Below, one piece after another: positions 3,279-48,220 of a DNA stretch of 64,000 nt (positions within the stretch are counted from its first letter, which is position 1; every line of letters begins with the position of its first letter). The stretch lies in the sequence record MH051335.1. One strand, written 5' to 3'. Below the pieces are notes generated by a model, which was given only the letters and a program-made list of their open reading frames with translations, did no database searches and was not told where the DNA came from. The translations under genes and the position numbers were made by a program. The stretch is from Escherichia phage vB_EcoM-Ro157lw.

Positions 3279-3402
3279 AAGGCGCAAAACTTTCCCTTCG
3301 TTCCGAACTAAAACGAGAAATATGCCGACCCTTCGCCCGAAAATAGTACGCATGCGAAATTACCGACATCTAGAATAATCCCCACCGATATTATTCTGCG
3401 CG

Positions 3403-3462
3403 CAATCATTCGCTTTCGAACTATTATGCTTCATATTATTATGCGTCGAATCATTCGCTTTC
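3403..3462 (+). repeat. 15-bp direct repeat (C/G)AATCATTCGCTTTC x2 (3403-3417, 3448-3462); adjacent 8-bp-stem hairpin at 3372-3397
   Basis: Direct reading, period 45 bp. Confidence 0.8.
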
Positions 3463-3555
3463 TAATTGTAACGCTGGAAACTGTAACGGCGATTGATTAT
3501 TGCGTTCGTGTGGTTTTTAGGGCATGGGTCTTTTGGTGCGTTTTGGTACTTGATG

Positions 3556-9246: not shown

Positions 9247-10707
9247 ATGAATAAAATATTAACACATAATTGGAAAGTCATGTACCAGTTGAATCCTGCT
9301 TTAAGAGAAGTCTGGAAGACGAAAGCGCGATACAAAGTCATATACGGCGGTCGTGCATCTTCCAAATCGCACGATGCCGCTGGTTTTGCTATTTATTTGG
9401 CGGCAAACTTCAAATTAAAATTCCTTTGCGTTCGACAATTCCAGAACAAGATTTCTGAATCAGTATATACGCTATTAAAAGATAAAATAGAGATTTCTGA
9501 TTTTAAAGACGAGTTCAACTTATTAAAGAACTCTATTGAACACAAAAGAACAAAATCTGAATTTTTATTTTACGGTATCGCACGCAACGTTGACGAAATC
9601 AAATCAACAGAAGGTGTTGATGTTCTTTGGCTTGAAGAAGCGCATGCACTGACTGAAGAGCAATGGGACATCATTGAGCCGACAATTCGTAAGGAAGGGT
9701 CCGAAATATGGATCATATTTAACCCTGATGAAGAGGCTGATTTTGTCTACCAGAACTTTGTCATGCGACCGCCGAAGAATGCCATCGTTAAGAAGATTAA
9801 CTGGCAGGACAACCCATTCTTGTCGCAAACAATGCTGGATGTTATAGCTGGCATGTATGAGCGCGACCCGAAAAAGGCAGAACACGTTTATGGCGGAGTA
9901 CCGAAGACTGGCGGCGACAAGTCGGTCATCAACCGTGCATTTGTCAAGGCCGCGCTAAACCTCCACAAACACCCTACGCTGGGGTGGAGCTTGTCAGGGT
10001 CTAACCGTATAGGCTTCGACGTGGCGGACGACGGCGACGACTTAAACGCCACAGCGTTTGTCACAGGCAACGTATTACGTGGCATCAAGACATGGGAAGG
10101 TCTGGAAGATGAATTGCTTAAGTCCGCAAGCGGAGTTTGGAAAGACGCATTGACATTCGGCGCATCAATCACCTATGACGCCATCGGTGTTGGTGCATTT
10201 GCTGGTTCAAAATTTGATGAGCTTAATGAGTATGCAATCCATGAAAATCCAACATTCCCAAGAATCGAATTTAATGCGTTCAACGCGCAAGGTGCTGTTG
10301 ATGATCCTGATGACGTTTTCCTTGAGTTACCACACGTTGAAATACTCAATAAAGACCATTTCGCAAACATAAAAGCGCAAAAATGGACTGAGATTGCCGA
10401 ACGATTCAGAAAGACATATGAGTATGCGACAGGGCAAGCCGTATATCCGACCGATGAGTTGATTTCCATCGACACAGACGGCATCCCAGAACTTGGTATT
10501 CCCGCTTGGTCTGCCGAAGAAATTGAGACGTTTCTTTTTGAGATGTCAGCACCGCGCAAAGACACGTCTGTTCTTGGTAAGTTCAAAGTTGAATCGAAAA
10601 AAGATATGGCAAAGCGTGGAGTCAAATCGCCTAACAAAGCGGACGCAGCAATCATGGCATTGATGAAACCAATTGTTGCAGCATCCGGCTTCTTCTCTAA
10701 CCTTTAA
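9247..10707 (+). CDS. terL: terminase large subunit
   Basis: Deviant Walker A GGRASSKS, Walker B VDVLWLEEA; position ahead of portal. Confidence 0.8.
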   Translation: MNKILTHNWKVMYQLNPALREVWKTKARYKVIYGGRASSKSHDAAGFAIYLAANFKLKFLCVRQFQNKISESVYTLLKDKIEISDFKDEFNLLKNSIEHKRTKSEFLFYGIARNVDEIKSTEGVDVLWLEEAHALTEEQWDIIEPTIRKEGSEIWIIFNPDEEADFVYQNFVMRPPKNAIVKKINWQDNPFLSQTMLDVIAGMYERDPKKAEHVYGGVPKTGGDKSVINRAFVKAALNLHKHPTLGWSLSGSNRIGFDVADDGDDLNATAFVTGNVLRGIKTWEGLEDELLKSASGVWKDALTFGASITYDAIGVGAFAGSKFDELNEYAIHENPTFPRIEFNAFNAQGAVDDPDDVFLELPHVEILNKDHFANIKAQKWTEIAERFRKTYEYATGQAVYPTDELISIDTDGIPELGIPAWSAEEIETFLFEMSAPRKDTSVLGKFKVESKKDMAKRGVKSPNKADAAIMALMKPIVAASGFFSNL

Positions 10708-42724: not shown

Positions 42725-44248
42725 TTAATTCATCTTTTTGCCGTCGAGGATGTGATCAGCAAGCATTGACTTCATACTGAGTGAACGCTGAATTTCTTCG
42801 TCGATGGTATCAACACCAATAAAATCAACATACAACACGCTTGATTTGGTGCCGATGCGGTGATTTCGGTCTTCGGATTGCTTGCGCAACTCGTTATCGT
42901 AGTTGCAAGAATAATAAATTGCCAAGTCGGCGGCGGTAAGCGTGATGCCGATGCCTGCCGCTGCAGCGTGGCAAACCAAGACTTGCGTTCCGCCGTTCTC
43001 GACTGTATTCTTCTGGAAGTCATCAATTAAGAACTCTCGCTGCTCTTTGGACGTTTCACCATTGTATACACCAGTGACCACGCCTTCAGACTCAAGCCAG
43101 TCCTTAATCTGGTTCATCTCTTCCTTAAAGATGGCCCAAACGATGAATTTGCGCTCTGGGTCGTCTTCCAGCACACCTTCCACATAATCCTTAAAGGCCG
43201 TGAATCGTGGGTTGTCTTCCATGTAGACCATCTCATCATACACCTTAACAAAGCCGGATGTAACCTGCTTCATCTTAGTGCGAGACGCGATCATCTCAAA
43301 CTTGACGTTTTCTTCTTCGCCCTTGTATTCCATCAAATAGTTGTACTCATTCTTGAGTTCATCGTAAACATCACGTTGTTTAGGCGACAACTCGAAGTCG
43401 ATAAACTTGTACACCTTCTCTGGAAGGTCCGGCAAGTATTCCGCTTTTGTCGCACGAAAATAGTGCGGTTCCATCAGCCGGATAAGCTTGTCAAGGTTTT
43501 TGTACATCGGTCGACCAAACTGGTCTTTGCGCGGCACTTGCGGAATCCCATAACCATTGCCGCCGATTTTCTTGAGGATGGCTTGCATCTCTGGGTCGTG
43601 CGCTTCAAGTAGCACTGTAAATTCAGAGTTAAAGGCACGGAATGATTTGGTGCCGAGCAATCCTGCTTCAAGGAAGTGGTATTGCATGTAAATATCCGCA
43701 GGCGAGCGCGGCAACGGCGTGCCAGAAAGGATTCGACGGGCCTTTGCCAGCCGTCCCAATTCCACAACCTTGATGGAGCGTTTGGCTGTGTTATTCTTGA
43801 TGCGCGTTGATTCGTCGATGATCATCAGGCAGCGGTACTTCTTCAAGACCGACTCGATGTGTTGATAACCGACTGGTGTGTTGACAGTATCGATGTTGAA
43901 TGAGAAGATGCGCGCAGGCACTTCGCCTTCGGGGTAGTGATCAGCAAACATCTTCTCCCAAAGCGCCTTGCCCTTTTTAGTTTTCATCTTATCGTTGCCG
44001 CACCAGTAGTGCCCAATCCACTTGATGGAAAGGTGCTCTGGCGCTTCACGACGAATCCAGTTTGAGTGGACCCCGTTTGGAGCGATGACGACCATGGCGT
44101 CGAAAGCGCCAGCGGTGAAGTGCTTTTCAAACTCTGCCAAAGCGGTCCAAGTTTTACCAAGACCCTGTTCCATGAAATAGGCAAAGTATTTTCTGCGGCC
44201 TGCTTTATCAAGCGCCAGAAGCTGGTGGCGCATCCCTTGTGTTTTCAT
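42725..44248 (-). CDS. SNF2-family helicase
   Basis: DExx box MIIDESTRIKN, motif III ILSGTPL, motif VI QSEDRNHRIG. Confidence 0.8.
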   Translation of the reverse strand: MKTQGMRHQLLALDKAGRRKYFAYFMEQGLGKTWTALAEFEKHFTAGAFDAMVVIAPNGVHSNWIRREAPEHLSIKWIGHYWCGNDKMKTKKGKALWEKMFADHYPEGEVPARIFSFNIDTVNTPVGYQHIESVLKKYRCLMIIDESTRIKNNTAKRSIKVVELGRLAKARRILSGTPLPRSPADIYMQYHFLEAGLLGTKSFRAFNSEFTVLLEAHDPEMQAILKKIGGNGYGIPQVPRKDQFGRPMYKNLDKLIRLMEPHYFRATKAEYLPDLPEKVYKFIDFELSPKQRDVYDELKNEYNYLMEYKGEEENVKFEMIASRTKMKQVTSGFVKVYDEMVYMEDNPRFTAFKDYVEGVLEDDPERKFIVWAIFKEEMNQIKDWLESEGVVTGVYNGETSKEQREFLIDDFQKNTVENGGTQVLVCHAAAAGIGITLTAADLAIYYSCNYDNELRKQSEDRNHRIGTKSSVLYVDFIGVDTIDEEIQRSLSMKSMLADHILDGKKMN

Positions 44249-44667
44249 GACAATTCCTCTAAATACTTGATGATGTGATGGATGGACCCGCTCGCGGCGA
44301 CCATATCCAAAATCTCACCCTTAGTATATTCTTTTAATCGCAATGAAGGGTGAACTAAATAATAAGCCTTTTCAGAATCTACCTTCAGCAGCACAAATGA
44401 CGAGAACTTCCAATCATTCCAAGAAGTCAAAAAGCTTTGTTGGCCTTTCTCAAATGCACTTTTAAAAGGAAGAGTGGTGGCCCTTGCAGGCCACGATTCA
44501 AAAAACTTCATTTCAAGCCAAAAGCCGCGCCCTTTCCGGTTGGTGCCGATTACATCCGGCACACCATCACCCGTCATGGATTCGATTCTTTGAAGCTTCA
44601 GTACTGATTCTGAATGCTTCTTCAAAGGAACGAAAATGTATTTTTGTTCACGGTTATTTGTTGCCAT
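44245..44667 (-). CDS. VRR-NUC domain nuclease
   Basis: PD-(D/E)xK-type motif GVPDVIG...WLEMK; paired with SNF2 helicase. Confidence 0.6.
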   Translation of the reverse strand: MATNNREQKYIFVPLKKHSESVLKLQRIESMTGDGVPDVIGTNRKGRGFWLEMKFFESWPARATTLPFKSAFEKGQQSFLTSWNDWKFSSFVLLKVDSEKAYYLVHPSLRLKEYTKGEILDMVAASGSIHHIIKYLEELS

Positions 44668-45310
44668 CTGGATACACCTGTTTGATCACGTCGACTATAA
44701 ACATGTCAATGCCTTCAAGCTTTCGACCTTTCATCAGGAAGAATGCACCGTTCCCGACGTTCTCTGCAATGTATTTCCCGTATTTCTGGAACTTCTCTGG
44801 ACGAATCCTGAAGCGCATTGGCGAGTCGGTCGAGTCGTCCTTGCACATAAGGTCGATGAACTGAGTTTCAAGCTTGTTTCCATACTGATCAAACTCTGCG
44901 TAGCGGCCATCGGCCTGAAGACCCTTTTTAAGCTTGCCGTGCTTTGTATAAATGCCGCGCTCAAGACGTTTACGGATGCGTGTTGCTTCGTTCTCGTCAG
45001 CCAGCACTTTCTTGGTCAACTTGCCGATTACTATTGCACGCTCGTCATCGCCGACTTCCTTCATCTGACGTATTGAAGCACCGGAAGTAACGCCAATCAG
45101 ATAGGGGTCATTATACGCCCAGCCAAACTTGGTGTGCATCTCTGTAAGGTCGCCGTATTTGACTTCAGCATTGGCCAATGCATCCTTTTGTTTTTGCGTT
45201 AAGGTTCCGGCTTCACGTGCTTCGATGTACTTCATCGCTTTCACCATTCCGTACCCTTTAGCGTTCATGATGCCGCCAATTAGCTTTCCGTTAGCGATTG
45301 GCCAATGCAT
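44654..45310 (-). pseudogene. C-terminal fragment of the DnaE-like polymerase, separated from the main ORF by a frameshifting 127-bp tandem duplication
   Basis: N-terminus repeats the last 42 aa of ORF 45291..47678 (IANGKLIGGIMNAKGYGMVKAMKYIEAREAGTLTQKQKDALAN); no usable SD at its ATG. Confidence 0.65.
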
Positions 45311-45424
45311 CCTTTTGTTTTTGCGTTAAGGTTCCGGCTTCACGTGCTTCGATGTACTTCATCGCTTTCACCATTCCGTACCCTTTAGCGTTCATGATGC
45401 CGCCAATTAGCTTTCCGTTAGCGA
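45171..45424. repeat. perfect tandem direct duplication, 2 x 127 bp (45171-45297 and 45298-45424)
   Basis: Identical copies read directly; consistent with the ORF-track break. Confidence 0.9.
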
Positions 45425-47678
45425 TGGTCCAGTTCATTGAAGAGTGATCAGGGTCGATTGGCACATAATCCACGCCTTCCTTTGCAAGTTCACGTAATAT
45501 CGCAATCGTCTGGTCTTCGTCCTTGGCAGCGCGTAAGCAAGCAGCGGCAAATTCCAACGGATAGTGTCGTTTAAGCCACAAGGTCCAGTAGGTCACGACC
45601 GCGTATGATACGGAGTGTGACTTGTTAAATCCCCATGACCCGAACGTCGCCATTGCTTGCCAAAGCTTTCTTGCATCAGCTTCCGGTACGCCGTTATTTA
45701 TTGCGCCTGCAACGAAGTCTTCGCCAAGCTTGTTAAAGTATTCCTCACCCTTACGGCCTGACATCGCCTTACGTACAGCGGATGTCTTCGCCCAGTCAAA
45801 TGAACCAATCTCTTTAACCACGGCCATGATTTGCTCTTGGTAAAGAAACACGCCGTAAGTCTCTTTTAAGTACGGCTCAAGCTGCGGCACGTCGTACTCA
45901 ATCGGCGCACGTCCTGCCGCGCGTTCGATGTATTTCTGGGCCATACCGGATGACAACGGGCCAGGTCGGCCAAGTGCTGTCAGGTTATCGATTTTGTTAA
46001 AGTTATCAACGTGCACAAAGTTGGTTACTGAGCGTACAGCGTCGCCTTCGAACTGGAAGATTCCTGACATCTTATTTTCGTTAAGGATGTCAAGGACGCT
46101 TTGATCATTGAGCTTGATTCCGTACAGTGTTTCAGCATCTATCACGCCAGTATCAGAAATGATGCCGAGGGTACGAAGGCCCAATGCATCAAGCTTCAAA
46201 AGGTTAAGGTATTCGCTGTCAGGCTTATCAATTTGTGCAATCCCTTCCGCCGTTACCGTACAGTAATCAGAGATTGGATCATTACACACGATGATTCCCG
46301 CTGCGTGAACGCCAGTGTGGGAAGGGTGAATTTCAAGGTCACCCATGCATCGCGCGGCATCAGGATATTTAGCCACAAACTCTTGGCCCGTGGTCGTTGT
46401 TGCAAAGGTGTCCTCCAGGCCGTGGCCATAACGGGCGTCACCGGATGAGTATTCAAGCAATGCGTTTTTAATGTTGGCCGTTTCGTGATATCCAATGTTG
46501 AATTTCTTACCAACCTGAGCCATTACTGAGTTGGCCTTAAGCGTGTTGATGTTGCCAAGCTTTGCAACGTTCATTTCGCCGTATTTTTCTTTAAGGTAAT
46601 CAAACACCATATAGCGTTTGGTATCCTCAAAGTCAATATCAATATCAGGAAGGTCTGCGCGGCTTACGTCAATGAATCGGGCAAACAGTAGCTTATACGG
46701 GATTGGGTCAACTTCCGTGATGCCGAGGCAATAACAAACCAGTGAACCAGCCGATGAGCCGCGAGCGGGTCCGACGAGCATTTTTGTTTTTGCGAATCGT
46801 ACAAGGTCCGCTACCACCAGAAAGTATGAGTCGAAATCTTTCAGCTGAATCTGGTGAATCTCTTCGTTGAATCGGTCCTCATATTCCTGAGTCCATTCTT
46901 TGATGTGGCCTGCCTTAAGGCGGTACTCCATCCCCTCACGAGCAAGCTTTACCATGTCACCAGCAAGGTGGATAATCGGTGCCTTGCGCAGCTTCAGGTC
47001 AAGTCCCACGATTCCGTTTGCAATGTCAACTGCATTGGCCGTTGCTTGATTCAACTCATCTTCGGTCAATATTCCTTTAAGCTGTTTGCGCAAGTCTTCC
47101 GCGTCAACGATACAGTGCGGCTTGACCGTGTCGCGCACTTCCCAAGCATAAGCAAAGTCAACGTGCTCAGGTGAAGGCATGTGGTTGTATCCGGTTAAAA
47201 CCAGCGGCCTTCCGTTGCTGCGGTGAGCCAATACCTGGCGCTTGGCCAAAAGGAACGATGATGGGTTGACGTCTATATAATCGTAGTCCTCTGGCCGCAG
47301 CAACTCCACGGCCCCGCCACAGAATTTAACGACGCCATCGAGCGCCCCGAACTCTGCACGGGTCAGTCCGCCGCGCTGTGTTGCAAGCGTGGTCGCGTTG
47401 TAAAAGGATTTCAGGTCAAGCGCCAATATCCAAGCCTTCGGTTTGAATCCCTTTTTCGGGTCCGCATCAGGGTCGATGATTGGAATTTCCATGCCGAACA
47501 TAGGCTTAATATCATTTTTCTGGCACTCCTTTTCCCATCGAACGTGACCCCATGTATTGTTATCAACTAATGCCGCGACTTCGCAGCCCAACTCTTTGAG
47601 CCGTGCTATAATTTCAGGATGCCGTCCATATACTTCTTTGAACGTGTAACCGCTGCGAACTCTCAATTGTGGAAACAT
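45291..47678 (-). CDS. dnaE: DNA polymerase III alpha-like (DnaE, C-family) catalytic subunit, interrupted at its 3' end
   Basis: Motifs GPARGSSAGSLVCYCLGITEVDP, GIFQFEG, FNKSHSVSYA; PHP-like N-terminus. Confidence 0.8.
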   Translation of the reverse strand: MFPQLRVRSGYTFKEVYGRHPEIIARLKELGCEVAALVDNNTWGHVRWEKECQKNDIKPMFGMEIPIIDPDADPKKGFKPKAWILALDLKSFYNATTLATQRGGLTRAEFGALDGVVKFCGGAVELLRPEDYDYIDVNPSSFLLAKRQVLAHRSNGRPLVLTGYNHMPSPEHVDFAYAWEVRDTVKPHCIVDAEDLRKQLKGILTEDELNQATANAVDIANGIVGLDLKLRKAPIIHLAGDMVKLAREGMEYRLKAGHIKEWTQEYEDRFNEEIHQIQLKDFDSYFLVVADLVRFAKTKMLVGPARGSSAGSLVCYCLGITEVDPIPYKLLFARFIDVSRADLPDIDIDFEDTKRYMVFDYLKEKYGEMNVAKLGNINTLKANSVMAQVGKKFNIGYHETANIKNALLEYSSGDARYGHGLEDTFATTTTGQEFVAKYPDAARCMGDLEIHPSHTGVHAAGIIVCNDPISDYCTVTAEGIAQIDKPDSEYLNLLKLDALGLRTLGIISDTGVIDAETLYGIKLNDQSVLDILNENKMSGIFQFEGDAVRSVTNFVHVDNFNKIDNLTALGRPGPLSSGMAQKYIERAAGRAPIEYDVPQLEPYLKETYGVFLYQEQIMAVVKEIGSFDWAKTSAVRKAMSGRKGEEYFNKLGEDFVAGAINNGVPEADARKLWQAMATFGSWGFNKSHSVSYAVVTYWTLWLKRHYPLEFAAACLRAAKDEDQTIAILRELAKEGVDYVPIDPDHSSMNWTIANGKLIGGIMNAKGYGMVKAMKYIEAREAGTLTQKQKDALANR

Positions 47679-48220
47679 TATTTACTCCAGATGTCATATA
47701 CGCCAATTTGTTGGCAGACTTTGTGCAGTAATATTACGTCGTCTAATGCACGGTGCTTCTGTTCATATTTTCCGAAATATAATTCATACAGCTCTTGAAG
47801 CTTAACTCTTCGGCCAAAAATAGGCAAGGTTTGCTCGACTGTACAAATGTTTATTTCTGGAAAATTAACATCACCAAGTGTAAGACCTTCGCGCTGTAAT
47901 GCATAATCAAGGATGTTCTTATCGAATGCATGGTTGTGCGCGATAGTGGCATCAGTCTTCTTGAAGATGTCTTTTAGTTGCGGAACGAAATGAATAAAGG
48001 GTGGATTGCACTCAAGGTCTTCATTGGTTAATCCGGTAATCTTTGTGATGATTTCTTCAATCACAATTTCAGGATTAATTATGAACTCGAACGTTTCAAG
48101 AATCTCTTTGCCGTCCGTCAACAGGCCTGCAAATTCAATAGGGCGCGGCTGCATCCCAAGCGGTGCTTTCGGGTGCACGGTTAATCCGGTTGTTTCGAAG
48201 TCATAAGGGAGAAATAACAC
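47678..48220 (-). CDS. DnaQ-like 3'-5' proofreading exonuclease
   Basis: Exo I YDFETTGL, Exo II AHNHAFD, Exo III HRALDD; GTG start with AGGAGG SD. Confidence 0.8.
   Translation of the reverse strand: MLFLPYDFETTGLTVHPKAPLGMQPRPIEFAGLLTDGKEILETFEFIINPEIVIEEIITKITGLTNEDLECNPPFIHFVPQLKDIFKKTDATIAHNHAFDKNILDYALQREGLTLGDVNFPEINICTVEQTLPIFGRRVKLQELYELYFGKYEQKHRALDDVILLHKVCQQIGVYDIWSK

What the first reader, a model, noticed from the sequence alone, without database searches (positions are those of the whole stretch)
45171..45424. Perfect 127-bp tandem duplication frameshifts the DnaE-like polymerase gene
Two identical 127-bp copies lie head-to-tail at 45171-45297 and 45298-45424. Because 127 is not a multiple of 3, the polymerase ORF (45291..47678, minus strand) ends prematurely and its C-terminal ~170 aa continue in another frame as ORF 44654..45310, which repeats the same 42 aa at its N-terminus. 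This is either an assembly or sequencing artifact, a recent inactivating duplication, or an unusual split-gene arrangement. The downstream fragment has no usable ribosome-binding site.
Basis: seen in the sequence. Interest (0 to 1): 0.7.

Follow-up and report, generated by a model that had tools for sequence, protein, structure and literature searches.

The report
Assembly artefact splitting a phage polymerase gene
The perfect 127-bp tandem duplication that breaks this phage's DNA polymerase gene is almost certainly a leftover of genome assembly (the untrimmed 127-base overlap between the two ends of a SPAdes contig, joined when the genome was re-oriented), not a feature of the phage itself.

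Summary
Two identical 127-bp copies lie head to tail at 45170-45423 and split a DnaE-type polymerase gene into a 795-aa ORF and a 218-aa ORF. The window is Escherichia phage vB_EcoM-Ro157lw (Wifcevirus, GenBank MH051335).

Five results point to a finishing artefact:
1. 127 is the largest k-mer SPAdes allows. The genome was assembled from 250-bp reads with Unicycler/SPAdes and then re-oriented to PhageTerm termini.
2. GenBank protein accessions run AVZ45605 (gene just right of dnaE), around the genome, to AVZ45707 (C-terminal dnaE fragment). The 795-aa CDS has a later-series number. So the first-submitted contig began and ended inside dnaE.
3. Deleting one copy restores a 965-aa ORF with one amino-acid difference from phage WFH (80 synonymous, 1 non-synonymous change).
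4. All 28 related phage records and three Logan contigs have one copy.
5. An independent k=31 assembly of run SRR8692289 matches the strain over 17.9 kb with one mismatch. It runs straight through the site with one copy, which a real duplication would not allow.

Caveats: Unicycler normally trims overlaps, two sister genomes lack the artefact, and raw reads could not be mapped.

Verdict: not a real feature. The only interest is correcting the database record.

The parts
45170..45296 (.). Copy 1 of the 127-bp unit. Inferred to be the last 127 nt of the originally submitted linear contig.
   Evidence: 100% identical to copy 2; the original accession series ends with AVZ45707, CDS 44654..45247, whose start lies inside this copy.
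45297..45423 (.). Copy 2 of the 127-bp unit. Inferred to be the first 127 nt of the originally submitted contig. This is the redundant copy, and deleting either one restores the gene.
   Evidence: In the alignment, WFH and Logan contigs L003, L004 and L005 all show a 127-column gap against one copy.
45424..45425 (.). 2-bp 'AT' that extends the shift-127 identity to 129 positions. Most simply a chance match rather than slippage microhomology.
   Evidence: The probability of a chance extension of 2 bp or more is 0.16.
45291..47678 (-). 795-aa ORF, deposited as 'DNA polymerase III alpha subunit' AXY65046.1. It is the N-terminal 794 aa of DnaE plus one frameshifted residue, and its stop codon (45291-45293) lies across the artificial join.
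   Evidence: Pfam on the restored protein: PHP 5-91, DNA_pol3_alpha 243-500, DNA_pol3_finger 519-663. It carries a later accession series than every neighbouring gene.
44654..45310 (-). 218-aa ORF holding the C-terminal part of DnaE (restored aa 752-965) after 4 out-of-frame residues. Deposited in shorter form (44654..45247, 197 aa) as 'putative DNA polymerase III alpha subunit' AVZ45707.1.
44654..47678 (-). The real gene: one dnaE-type (C-family) replicative polymerase gene, 2,898 nt / 965 aa once one 127-bp copy is removed.
   Evidence: the collapsed ORF is 965 aa with 1 aa difference from WFH DnaE (QBQ77347, 965 aa); 80 synonymous and 1 non-synonymous difference, with 18:0 in the 172 codons downstream of the unit.
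47678..48220 (-). DEDDh (RNase_T family) 3'-5' exonuclease gene immediately upstream of dnaE. Its stop overlaps the dnaE start (TAATG). Lowest accession number I recovered in the original series (AVZ45605, annotated as a 158-aa form).
44245..44667 (-). 140-aa ORF immediately downstream of dnaE (14-nt overlap). AVZ45706, second-to-last of the original accession series. Its exact sequence led to Logan contig L005.

Best explanation
This is a genome-finishing artefact in the deposited sequence of Escherichia phage vB_EcoM-Ro157lw (MH051335). The phage has a 3.5-kb direct terminal repeat, so short reads assemble into an apparently circular contig. A SPAdes-type de Bruijn assembler writes such a circle as a linear contig whose first and last k bases are identical, and k = 127 is the SPAdes maximum. 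This contig happened to be opened inside dnaE. The record was later re-oriented to start at the PhageTerm-predicted terminus and given its terminal repeat. In that step the two contig ends were joined without removing the overlap, which created a perfect 127-bp tandem duplication. Because 127 is not a multiple of 3, the annotated polymerase falls into a 795-aa piece and a C-terminal piece. The phage itself most likely carries a single intact 965-aa dnaE. Shown here: the repeat's length and perfection, the original contig ends lying within dnaE, restoration of the gene on collapse, and a single copy in all relatives and in an independent assembly of the same strain. Inferred: the exact software or manual step that failed to trim the overlap, and that k = 127 was the k-mer graph actually used.
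For: (1) Length equals k. The unit is exactly 127 bp and 100% identical. [quoted passage not shown] 127-bp artificial end overlaps of SPAdes phage contigs are documented (PMC5923482, PMC7372960). (2) Re-orientation. Window position 1 aligns to position 1 of WFH and of Mansfield, whose record carries a PhageTerm direct-terminal-repeat annotation. (3) Original contig ends. Protein accessions rise steadily with genome position: AVZ45605 (47678-48220), 45606, 45608, 45616, 45622, 45623 (59.9 kb), then 45651 (1.3 kb), 45661, 45665, 45674, 45694, 45698, 45702, 45705, 45706 and AVZ45707 (44654-45247). The 795-aa CDS (AXY65046) and a right-DTR gene copy (AXY65042) belong to a later series. The 795-aa ORF's stop codon lies across the join, so it could not have been called before the join. 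(4) Collapse restores a 965-aa ORF with 1 aa difference from WFH DnaE. There are 80 synonymous and 1 non-synonymous change overall, and 18:0 in the supposedly orphaned C-terminal part. (5) All 28 Wifcevirus records have one copy: their matched spans are 4,172-4,175 bp against 4,298-4,301 bp of query (AV128's is 4,330 bp because of an unrelated 153-nt ORF), and a junction-centred query always splits into 2 pieces. The listed full-length members of the 161-member protein cluster are 965-967 aa. (6) Logan contigs from run SRR8692289 carry Ro157lw-specific proteins, including a tail fibre found in no other Logan sample. They match the collapsed window over 17,856 bp with 1 mismatch. Contig L005 crosses the site with one copy and contains none of the 28 diagnostic junction 31-mers. 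A k=31 graph of the duplicated sequence has branch nodes at 45170, 45268, 45297 and 45395 that would break such a contig, and the collapsed sequence has none.
Against: Unicycler's documented behaviour is to remove SPAdes end overlaps, so the overlap must have survived through an intermediate file, a linear contig or a manual step that I cannot identify. Two sister genomes from the same paper and pipeline (Ro111lw, Ro145lw) have no tandem repeat scoring at least 100, although Ro145lw's accession order shows it was also rotated. The k actually selected is not reported. The provenance of SRR8692289 is not documented in the paper or in the searchable literature, so it may be a re-sequencing rather than the original library. 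Logan assemblies discard low-abundance k-mers, so a minority variant with the duplication is not excluded. The 2-bp 'AT' at the junction is also what slippage microhomology would look like, although chance gives it 16% of the time. That accessions follow the original CDS order is my knowledge of GenBank practice, supported here by the monotonic order of 16 mapped proteins.
Confidence: 0.96

Rival explanations
1. A genuine, very recent tandem duplication (replication slippage or microhomology-mediated) fixed in the sequenced Ro157lw stock, which inactivated or truncated dnaE.
For: 2-bp AT identity at the junction. The copies are perfect, as expected for a recent event. The same pipeline did not produce such repeats in Ro111lw or Ro145lw. 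Unicycler normally trims overlaps.
Against: The unit length would have to equal the SPAdes maximum k by coincidence, and the event would have to lie where the original contig ends were. dnaE is the phage's only replicative polymerase catalytic subunit and is under strong purifying selection (80 syn: 1 nonsyn), so a stock fixed for a frameshift should not form plaques as described. An independent assembly of an indistinguishable strain has one copy and no junction k-mers. No relative has it.
Confidence: 0.02
2. The duplication is real but present only in a sub-population of virions (heteroplasmy), and the assembler happened to incorporate it.
For: Logan's abundance filtering means L005 cannot exclude a rare variant (inference). 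Tandem duplications do arise in phage stocks (general knowledge).
Against: A minority 127-bp duplication would again need to match k exactly. A consensus assembler would not normally write a minority loop into the main contig. The accession order explains the position without invoking any biology.
Confidence: 0.015
3. A functional split-gene arrangement: the polymerase is made as two polypeptides, or by programmed frameshifting across the repeat.
For: Both ORFs are intact and together cover the whole protein. Split or frameshift-controlled replication genes exist elsewhere (intein-split DnaE in cyanobacteria and dnaX -1 frameshifting, from general knowledge).
Against: Not conserved: 28 of 28 relatives and all listed cluster members encode one 965-967-aa protein. 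There is no spaced Shine-Dalgarno before the fragment. No intein or slippery-site features were seen. The 43-aa repeated peptide duplicates a structural element, which a designed split would not need. All the artefact evidence applies as well.
Confidence: 0.005

Closest known systems
SPAdes / de Bruijn k-mer end overlap of circular or circularly assembling contigs (127-bp 'artificial overlap')
   Same: Exact length 127 (the SPAdes maximum k), perfect identity, location at the ends of the original contig, a SPAdes-based assembly of 250-bp reads, and removal restoring colinearity with relatives.
   Different: Here the overlap is internal rather than at the record's ends, because the genome was rotated to the PhageTerm terminus and extended by the DTR after assembly. 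The stated wrapper (Unicycler) normally trims such overlaps.
Genuine tandem duplications from replication slippage in phage genomes
   Same: Head-to-tail perfect copies with a short (2-bp) identity at the junction.
   Different: Absent from an independent assembly of the same strain. The length equals the assembler's k. It would disrupt an essential gene that shows no relaxation of selection.
Bacterial-type DNA polymerase III alpha (DnaE, C-family) with a separate epsilon-like DEDDh exonuclease, as in other Wifcevirus phages
   Same: The restored 965-aa protein has PHP, Pol III alpha core and finger domains. It differs from WFH DnaE at one residue and is preceded by an RNase_T-family exonuclease gene with a TAATG stop/start overlap.
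   Different: Nothing once the artefact is removed. The deposited annotation shows it as two CDSs (AXY65046.1, AVZ45707.1).
Naturally split or recoded replication genes (intein-split DnaE; dnaX programmed frameshift)
   Same: Superficially, a replicative polymerase gene read in two frames or two pieces.
   Different: No conservation in relatives, no RBS, and no intein or slippery-site features. The split is created by a 127-bp repeat unique to one database record.

Membership tests
Assembler k-mer end-overlap artefact (SPAdes k=127) | Repeat length equals a k-mer size used by the assembler | tested here: met
   The unit is exactly 127 bp. 127 is the SPAdes maximum and the top of Unicycler's ladder for reads of 134 nt or more. 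The assembly used Unicycler/SPAdes on 250-bp reads. The k actually selected is not reported.
Assembler k-mer end-overlap artefact (SPAdes k=127) | The two copies are 100% identical | tested here: met
   127/127 identical. Both copies carry the same 5 differences from WFH.
Assembler k-mer end-overlap artefact (SPAdes k=127) | The copies correspond to the two ends of the assembler's linear contig | tested here: met
   The protein accession series starts at AVZ45605 (47678-48220) and ends at AVZ45707 (44654-45247). The CDS spanning the join has a later-series accession. This places the original ends between 45247 and 47678. The exact base could not be read because MH051335 and its version history are not available here.
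Assembler k-mer end-overlap artefact (SPAdes k=127) | The genome was rotated or joined after assembly | tested here: met
   Window position 1 equals position 1 of the WFH and Mansfield records. The paper used PhageTerm and reports a 3,533-bp DTR. A DTR gene copy has a later accession, AXY65042.
Assembler k-mer end-overlap artefact (SPAdes k=127) | Sequencing reads do not support the copy-to-copy junction | tested here: inconclusive
   Proxy only. Logan k=31 contig L005 from SRR8692289 (same strain; 17,856 bp with 1 mismatch) crosses the site with one copy and has 0 of 28 diagnostic junction 31-mers. A simulated graph shows a real duplication would break the contig. Raw reads cannot be mapped with these tools.
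Assembler k-mer end-overlap artefact (SPAdes k=127) | Removing one copy restores colinearity and intact genes | tested here: met
   A 965-aa ORF with 1 aa difference from WFH DnaE. Relatives show one copy.
Assembler k-mer end-overlap artefact (SPAdes k=127) | The same pipeline leaves the same artefact in sister genomes (supportive, not defining) | tested here: not met
   Ro111lw (L006/L007) and Ro145lw (L008) have no tandem repeat scoring at least 100. Ro121lw was not examined.
Genuine inactivating duplication / pseudogene | The junction is present in independent data from the same strain | tested here: not met
Genuine inactivating duplication / pseudogene | Relaxed selection or further lesions in the disrupted gene | tested here: not met
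   80 synonymous and 1 non-synonymous difference from WFH, and 18:0 downstream of the unit. A very recent event would also show this, so this feature is weak on its own.
Functional split or recoded polymerase gene | The arrangement is conserved in related genomes | tested here: not met
   None of 28 Wifcevirus records or 3 Logan contigs has it. Listed cluster members are 965-967 aa apart from partial contig-end fragments.
Functional split or recoded polymerase gene | Translation-initiation signal for the downstream part | tested here: not met
   The upstream sequence AAACAAAAGG abuts the ATG with no spacing.
DnaE-type (C-family) DNA polymerase III alpha | PHP domain, Pol III alpha core and finger domains | tested here: met
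   Pfam PF02811 (26.7 bits, just above the 26.4 cut-off), PF07733 (E = 3e-63) and PF17657 (E = 1.6e-37) on the restored protein.

The most novel reading that the evidence does not exclude
The 127-bp duplication is real in at least part of the Ro157lw population: a spontaneous microhomology-mediated duplication in an essential polymerase gene, carried along by co-infection with wild-type genomes. Its length matching the SPAdes maximum k, and its position matching the contig ends, would arise because a repeat of exactly k forces a k=127 graph to break there.
Probability: 0.02. Interest if true: 0.25.

Novelty: not a real feature. Interest (0 to 1): 0.04.

Why it matters
There is no new biology here. 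The value is in database hygiene and method. GenBank MH051335 is probably 127 bp too long (72,179 should be 72,052 bp). It presents the phage's replicative polymerase as two CDSs (AXY65046.1 and AVZ45707.1), and the truncated 795-aa form has propagated to UniRef (UniRef100_A0A494RIE8). Anyone using this record for polymerase phylogeny, pseudogene counts or phage-therapy safety screening would be misled. For genome scans, a perfect tandem duplication whose unit equals a common assembler k-mer should be treated as an untrimmed contig overlap until reads say otherwise. Common values, from my own knowledge, are 127, 99, 77 and 55 for SPAdes and 141 for MEGAHIT. The order of protein accession numbers can reveal where the original contig ends were.

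Tried and rejected
1. Exact search for the copy-to-copy junction (41-mer) in IMG/VR viral contigs: 0 hits.
2. Exact-product look-ups of the 795-aa ORF and the helicase in the assembly index: not on record. The source was found instead through the cluster look-up.
3. Pipeline control: I expected sister genomes from the same paper to carry the same artefact, but Ro111lw and Ro145lw do not. This does not support a systematic pipeline fault and is kept as evidence against. Ro121lw (150 kb) was not checked.
4. Direct retrieval of MH051335 and its annotation: not in the collection.
5. Literature search for SRR8692289: nothing. The Ro157lw paper mentions no SRA or BioProject, so the run's provenance rests on sequence identity only.
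6. AV128's longer matched span (4,330 bp against about 4,172-4,175 bp) looked like a possible second case. It turned out to be an unrelated 153-nt ORF between dnaE and the exonuclease gene.
7. I considered whether a wrapped or concatenated window could explain the repeat. It cannot: there are no other long repeats in the window.
8. I ran no further search on the junction. The 161-member protein cluster and 28 phage genomes already sample the family broadly.

Full report
**1. The observation.** Tandem Repeats Finder reports a single array at 45170-45425 with period 127, 2.0 copies, 100% matches and no indels. It is the only tandem repeat scoring at least 100 in the whole 64-kb window. The repeat finder gives copies at 45170-45296 and 45297-45423. 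Identity at an offset of 127 extends over 129 positions (45170-45298). On the minus strand, ORF 45291..47678 (795 aa) stops inside copy 1. ORF 44654..45310 (218 aa) carries the rest of the protein in another frame. The two share a 43-aa peptide, and the fragment's ATG is directly preceded by AAACAAAAGG with no spacing.

**2. What the window is.** Megablast places the region in the Wifcevirus phages of E. coli and Shigella, at 92-96% identity to 28 records. Exact-sequence look-up identifies the window as Escherichia phage vB_EcoM-Ro157lw, a 72,179-bp record. The 795-aa product is AXY65046.1, 'DNA polymerase III alpha subunit'. The record, MH051335, is not in the searchable phage collection.

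The source paper (PMC6454146) states that the phage was sequenced on a MiSeq with 250-bp paired reads. [quoted passage not shown] Termini were predicted with PhageTerm, giving a 3,533-bp direct terminal repeat and a 72,179-bp genome. Window position 1 coincides with position 1 of the WFH and Mansfield records (Mansfield carries a PhageTerm direct-terminal-repeat annotation), so the deposited sequence was deliberately re-oriented.

**3. The gene underneath.** In WFH, dnaE is a single 2,898-nt (965-aa) CDS flanked by the same neighbours. In the window the two fragments span 3,025 nt, which is 2,898 + 127.
- Deleting one copy yields a 965-aa ORF that differs from WFH DnaE at one residue (N524D), despite 81 nucleotide differences.
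- There are 80 synonymous codon differences and 1 non-synonymous. In the 172 codons downstream of the unit, which would be orphaned if the frameshift were real, the count is 18 to 0.
- Both copies carry the same five differences from WFH, so the duplication post-dates strain divergence.
- The restored protein has PHP (5-91), Pol III alpha core (243-500) and finger (519-663) domains. The unit encodes aa 752-794, C-terminal to these.
- The upstream gene is an RNase_T-family exonuclease whose stop overlaps the dnaE start (TAATG).

**4. Relatives.**
- All 28 Wifcevirus records match about 4,172-4,175 bp where the window has 4,298-4,301 bp. The one exception, AV128, is longer because of an unrelated 153-nt ORF.
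- A 140-bp query centred on the copy-to-copy junction never aligns in one piece.
- A direct alignment shows a 127-column gap in WFH and in three Logan contigs.
- Listed members of the 161-member 90%-identity protein cluster are 965-967 aa, apart from contig-end fragments and the two Ro157lw pieces.
- The junction 41-mer is absent from IMG/VR.

The duplication is therefore unique to this one database record.

**5. [quoted passage not shown] With 250-bp reads the ladder tops out at 127. A phage genome that assembles as a circle is written by SPAdes as a linear contig whose ends repeat k bases. [quoted passage not shown] If such a contig is circularised or rotated without trimming, the overlap becomes an internal perfect tandem duplication of 127 bp.

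**6. Where the original contig ends were.** GenBank issues protein accessions in the CDS order of the submission. This is my knowledge of GenBank practice, and the data here support it. I mapped 16 Ro157lw proteins, and the numbers rise steadily with genome position:
- **Right of dnaE, moving rightward:** AVZ45605 (exonuclease, 47678-48220), 45606 (48.3 kb), 45608 (49.0 kb), 45616 (55.8 kb), 45622 (58.2 kb), 45623 (59.9 kb).
- **After the wrap-around:** 45651 (1.3 kb), 45661 (5.5 kb), 45665 (9.2 kb), 45674 (18.3 kb), 45694 (32.6 kb), 45698 (38.1 kb), 45702 (40.9 kb), 45705 (helicase, 42.7 kb), 45706 (140-aa ORF, 44.2 kb).
- **Last number recovered:** AVZ45707, a 197-aa 'putative DNA polymerase III alpha subunit' at 44654..45247.
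- **Later series:** only the 795-aa polymerase CDS (AXY65046) and the right-DTR copy of gene _00004 (AXY65042, locus tag _00106).

The details fit. The C-terminal fragment was called from an internal ATG at 45247, within copy 1. The N-terminal part could not be called at all, because its stop codon (45291-45293) exists only across the join. It appears as a CDS only after the record was rotated and extended by the DTR.

**7. Independent assembly of the same strain.** The 140-aa neighbour's exact sequence occurs on Logan contig L005 from run SRR8692289. The same run is the only Logan sample carrying Ro157lw's strain-specific 784-aa tail fibre, and it also carries the strain-specific 183-aa protein. 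The three contigs align to the collapsed window over 17,856 bp with a single mismatch, 6 bp from a contig end. The next-closest contig is 98.6% identical.

L005 spans window 43277-47382, is 100.000% identical to the sequence with one copy removed, and contains none of the 28 diagnostic junction 31-mers. A k=31 graph built from the duplicated sequence has branching nodes at 45170, 45268, 45297 and 45395, which would terminate any unitig. The collapsed sequence has none across L005's span. So the junction k-mers were absent, or at error-level abundance, in that run. This is a proxy for read mapping and not a substitute. The run's provenance is undocumented.

**8. Caveats.**
- Unicycler is designed to trim SPAdes overlaps.
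- Two sister genomes from the same paper have no such repeat, although Ro145lw's accession order shows it too was rotated. The failure was therefore specific to this genome's handling, and I cannot name the step.
- The 2-bp 'AT' could be read as slippage microhomology, but chance gives an extension of 2 bp or more 16% of the time.
- A minority variant cannot be excluded by an abundance-filtered assembly.

**9. Verdict.** The duplication is real in the deposited sequence but almost certainly not in the phage. It is an untrimmed k=127 contig-end overlap made internal by re-orientation (confidence about 0.96). A genuine fixed duplication (about 0.02), a minority variant (about 0.015) and a functional split gene (about 0.005) are not supported. 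The underlying biology is an ordinary, highly conserved Wifcevirus dnaE with an upstream, translationally coupled epsilon-like exonuclease gene. Novelty: not a real feature. Interest is low, limited to correcting MH051335 and UniRef100_A0A494RIE8, and to the general rule that perfect tandem duplications of assembler k-mer length should be screened out.

Noticed in passing
L002 (OR352958.1, phage AV128) 4053-4205: AV128 carries an extra 153-nt annotated ORF (WPK38479.1, hypothetical) between dnaE and the exonuclease gene. The window and the other relatives lack it, and it explains AV128's longer matched span.
   Followed up: partly
window 47678-48220 (-): The exonuclease ORF is 180 aa from a GTG start, as in relatives, but is deposited for Ro157lw as a 158-aa form (AVZ45605.1). 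This is probably a start-codon mis-call. Its stop overlaps the dnaE start (TAATG), which suggests translational coupling of the epsilon-like and alpha-like subunits.
   Followed up: partly
clusters (no window coordinates): Near-identical Wifcevirus proteins sit on about 67-69-kb contigs inside many NCBI and Logan assemblies labelled Escherichia coli or Salmonella enterica (e.g. EDX5637767.1, EOO1304672.1, HDL9566508.1). The major capsid protein was seen on 201 contigs. A supposedly strictly lytic phage is frequently co-assembled with bacterial isolates, which could mean a carrier state or contamination.
   Followed up: no
window 3388-3475: Two adjacent 43-nt direct repeats (79% identical, 45-nt spacing) lie just inside the reported 3,533-bp DTR boundary. 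Logan contig L009 from SRR8692289 ends at 3428, inside them.
   Followed up: no
window 47383-47394: SRR8692289 contigs L005 and L010 end 12 nt apart here, inside the 5' part of dnaE, without the usual k-1 overlap. This may mark a site of read heterogeneity or low coverage in that run.
   Followed up: no
L008 (MH051334.1, Ro145lw): Protein accessions in this sister record are also out of order: AVZ45536-45555 for locus tags _00052-_00071, then AVZ45557 onward for _00001 onward.
   Followed up: partly
window 9247-10707 (+): The terminase large subunit is deposited as 486 aa in Ro157lw and ECML-117 but as 475 aa in WFH, AV128 and most Logan calls, so the start-codon annotation is inconsistent across the genus.
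   Followed up: no
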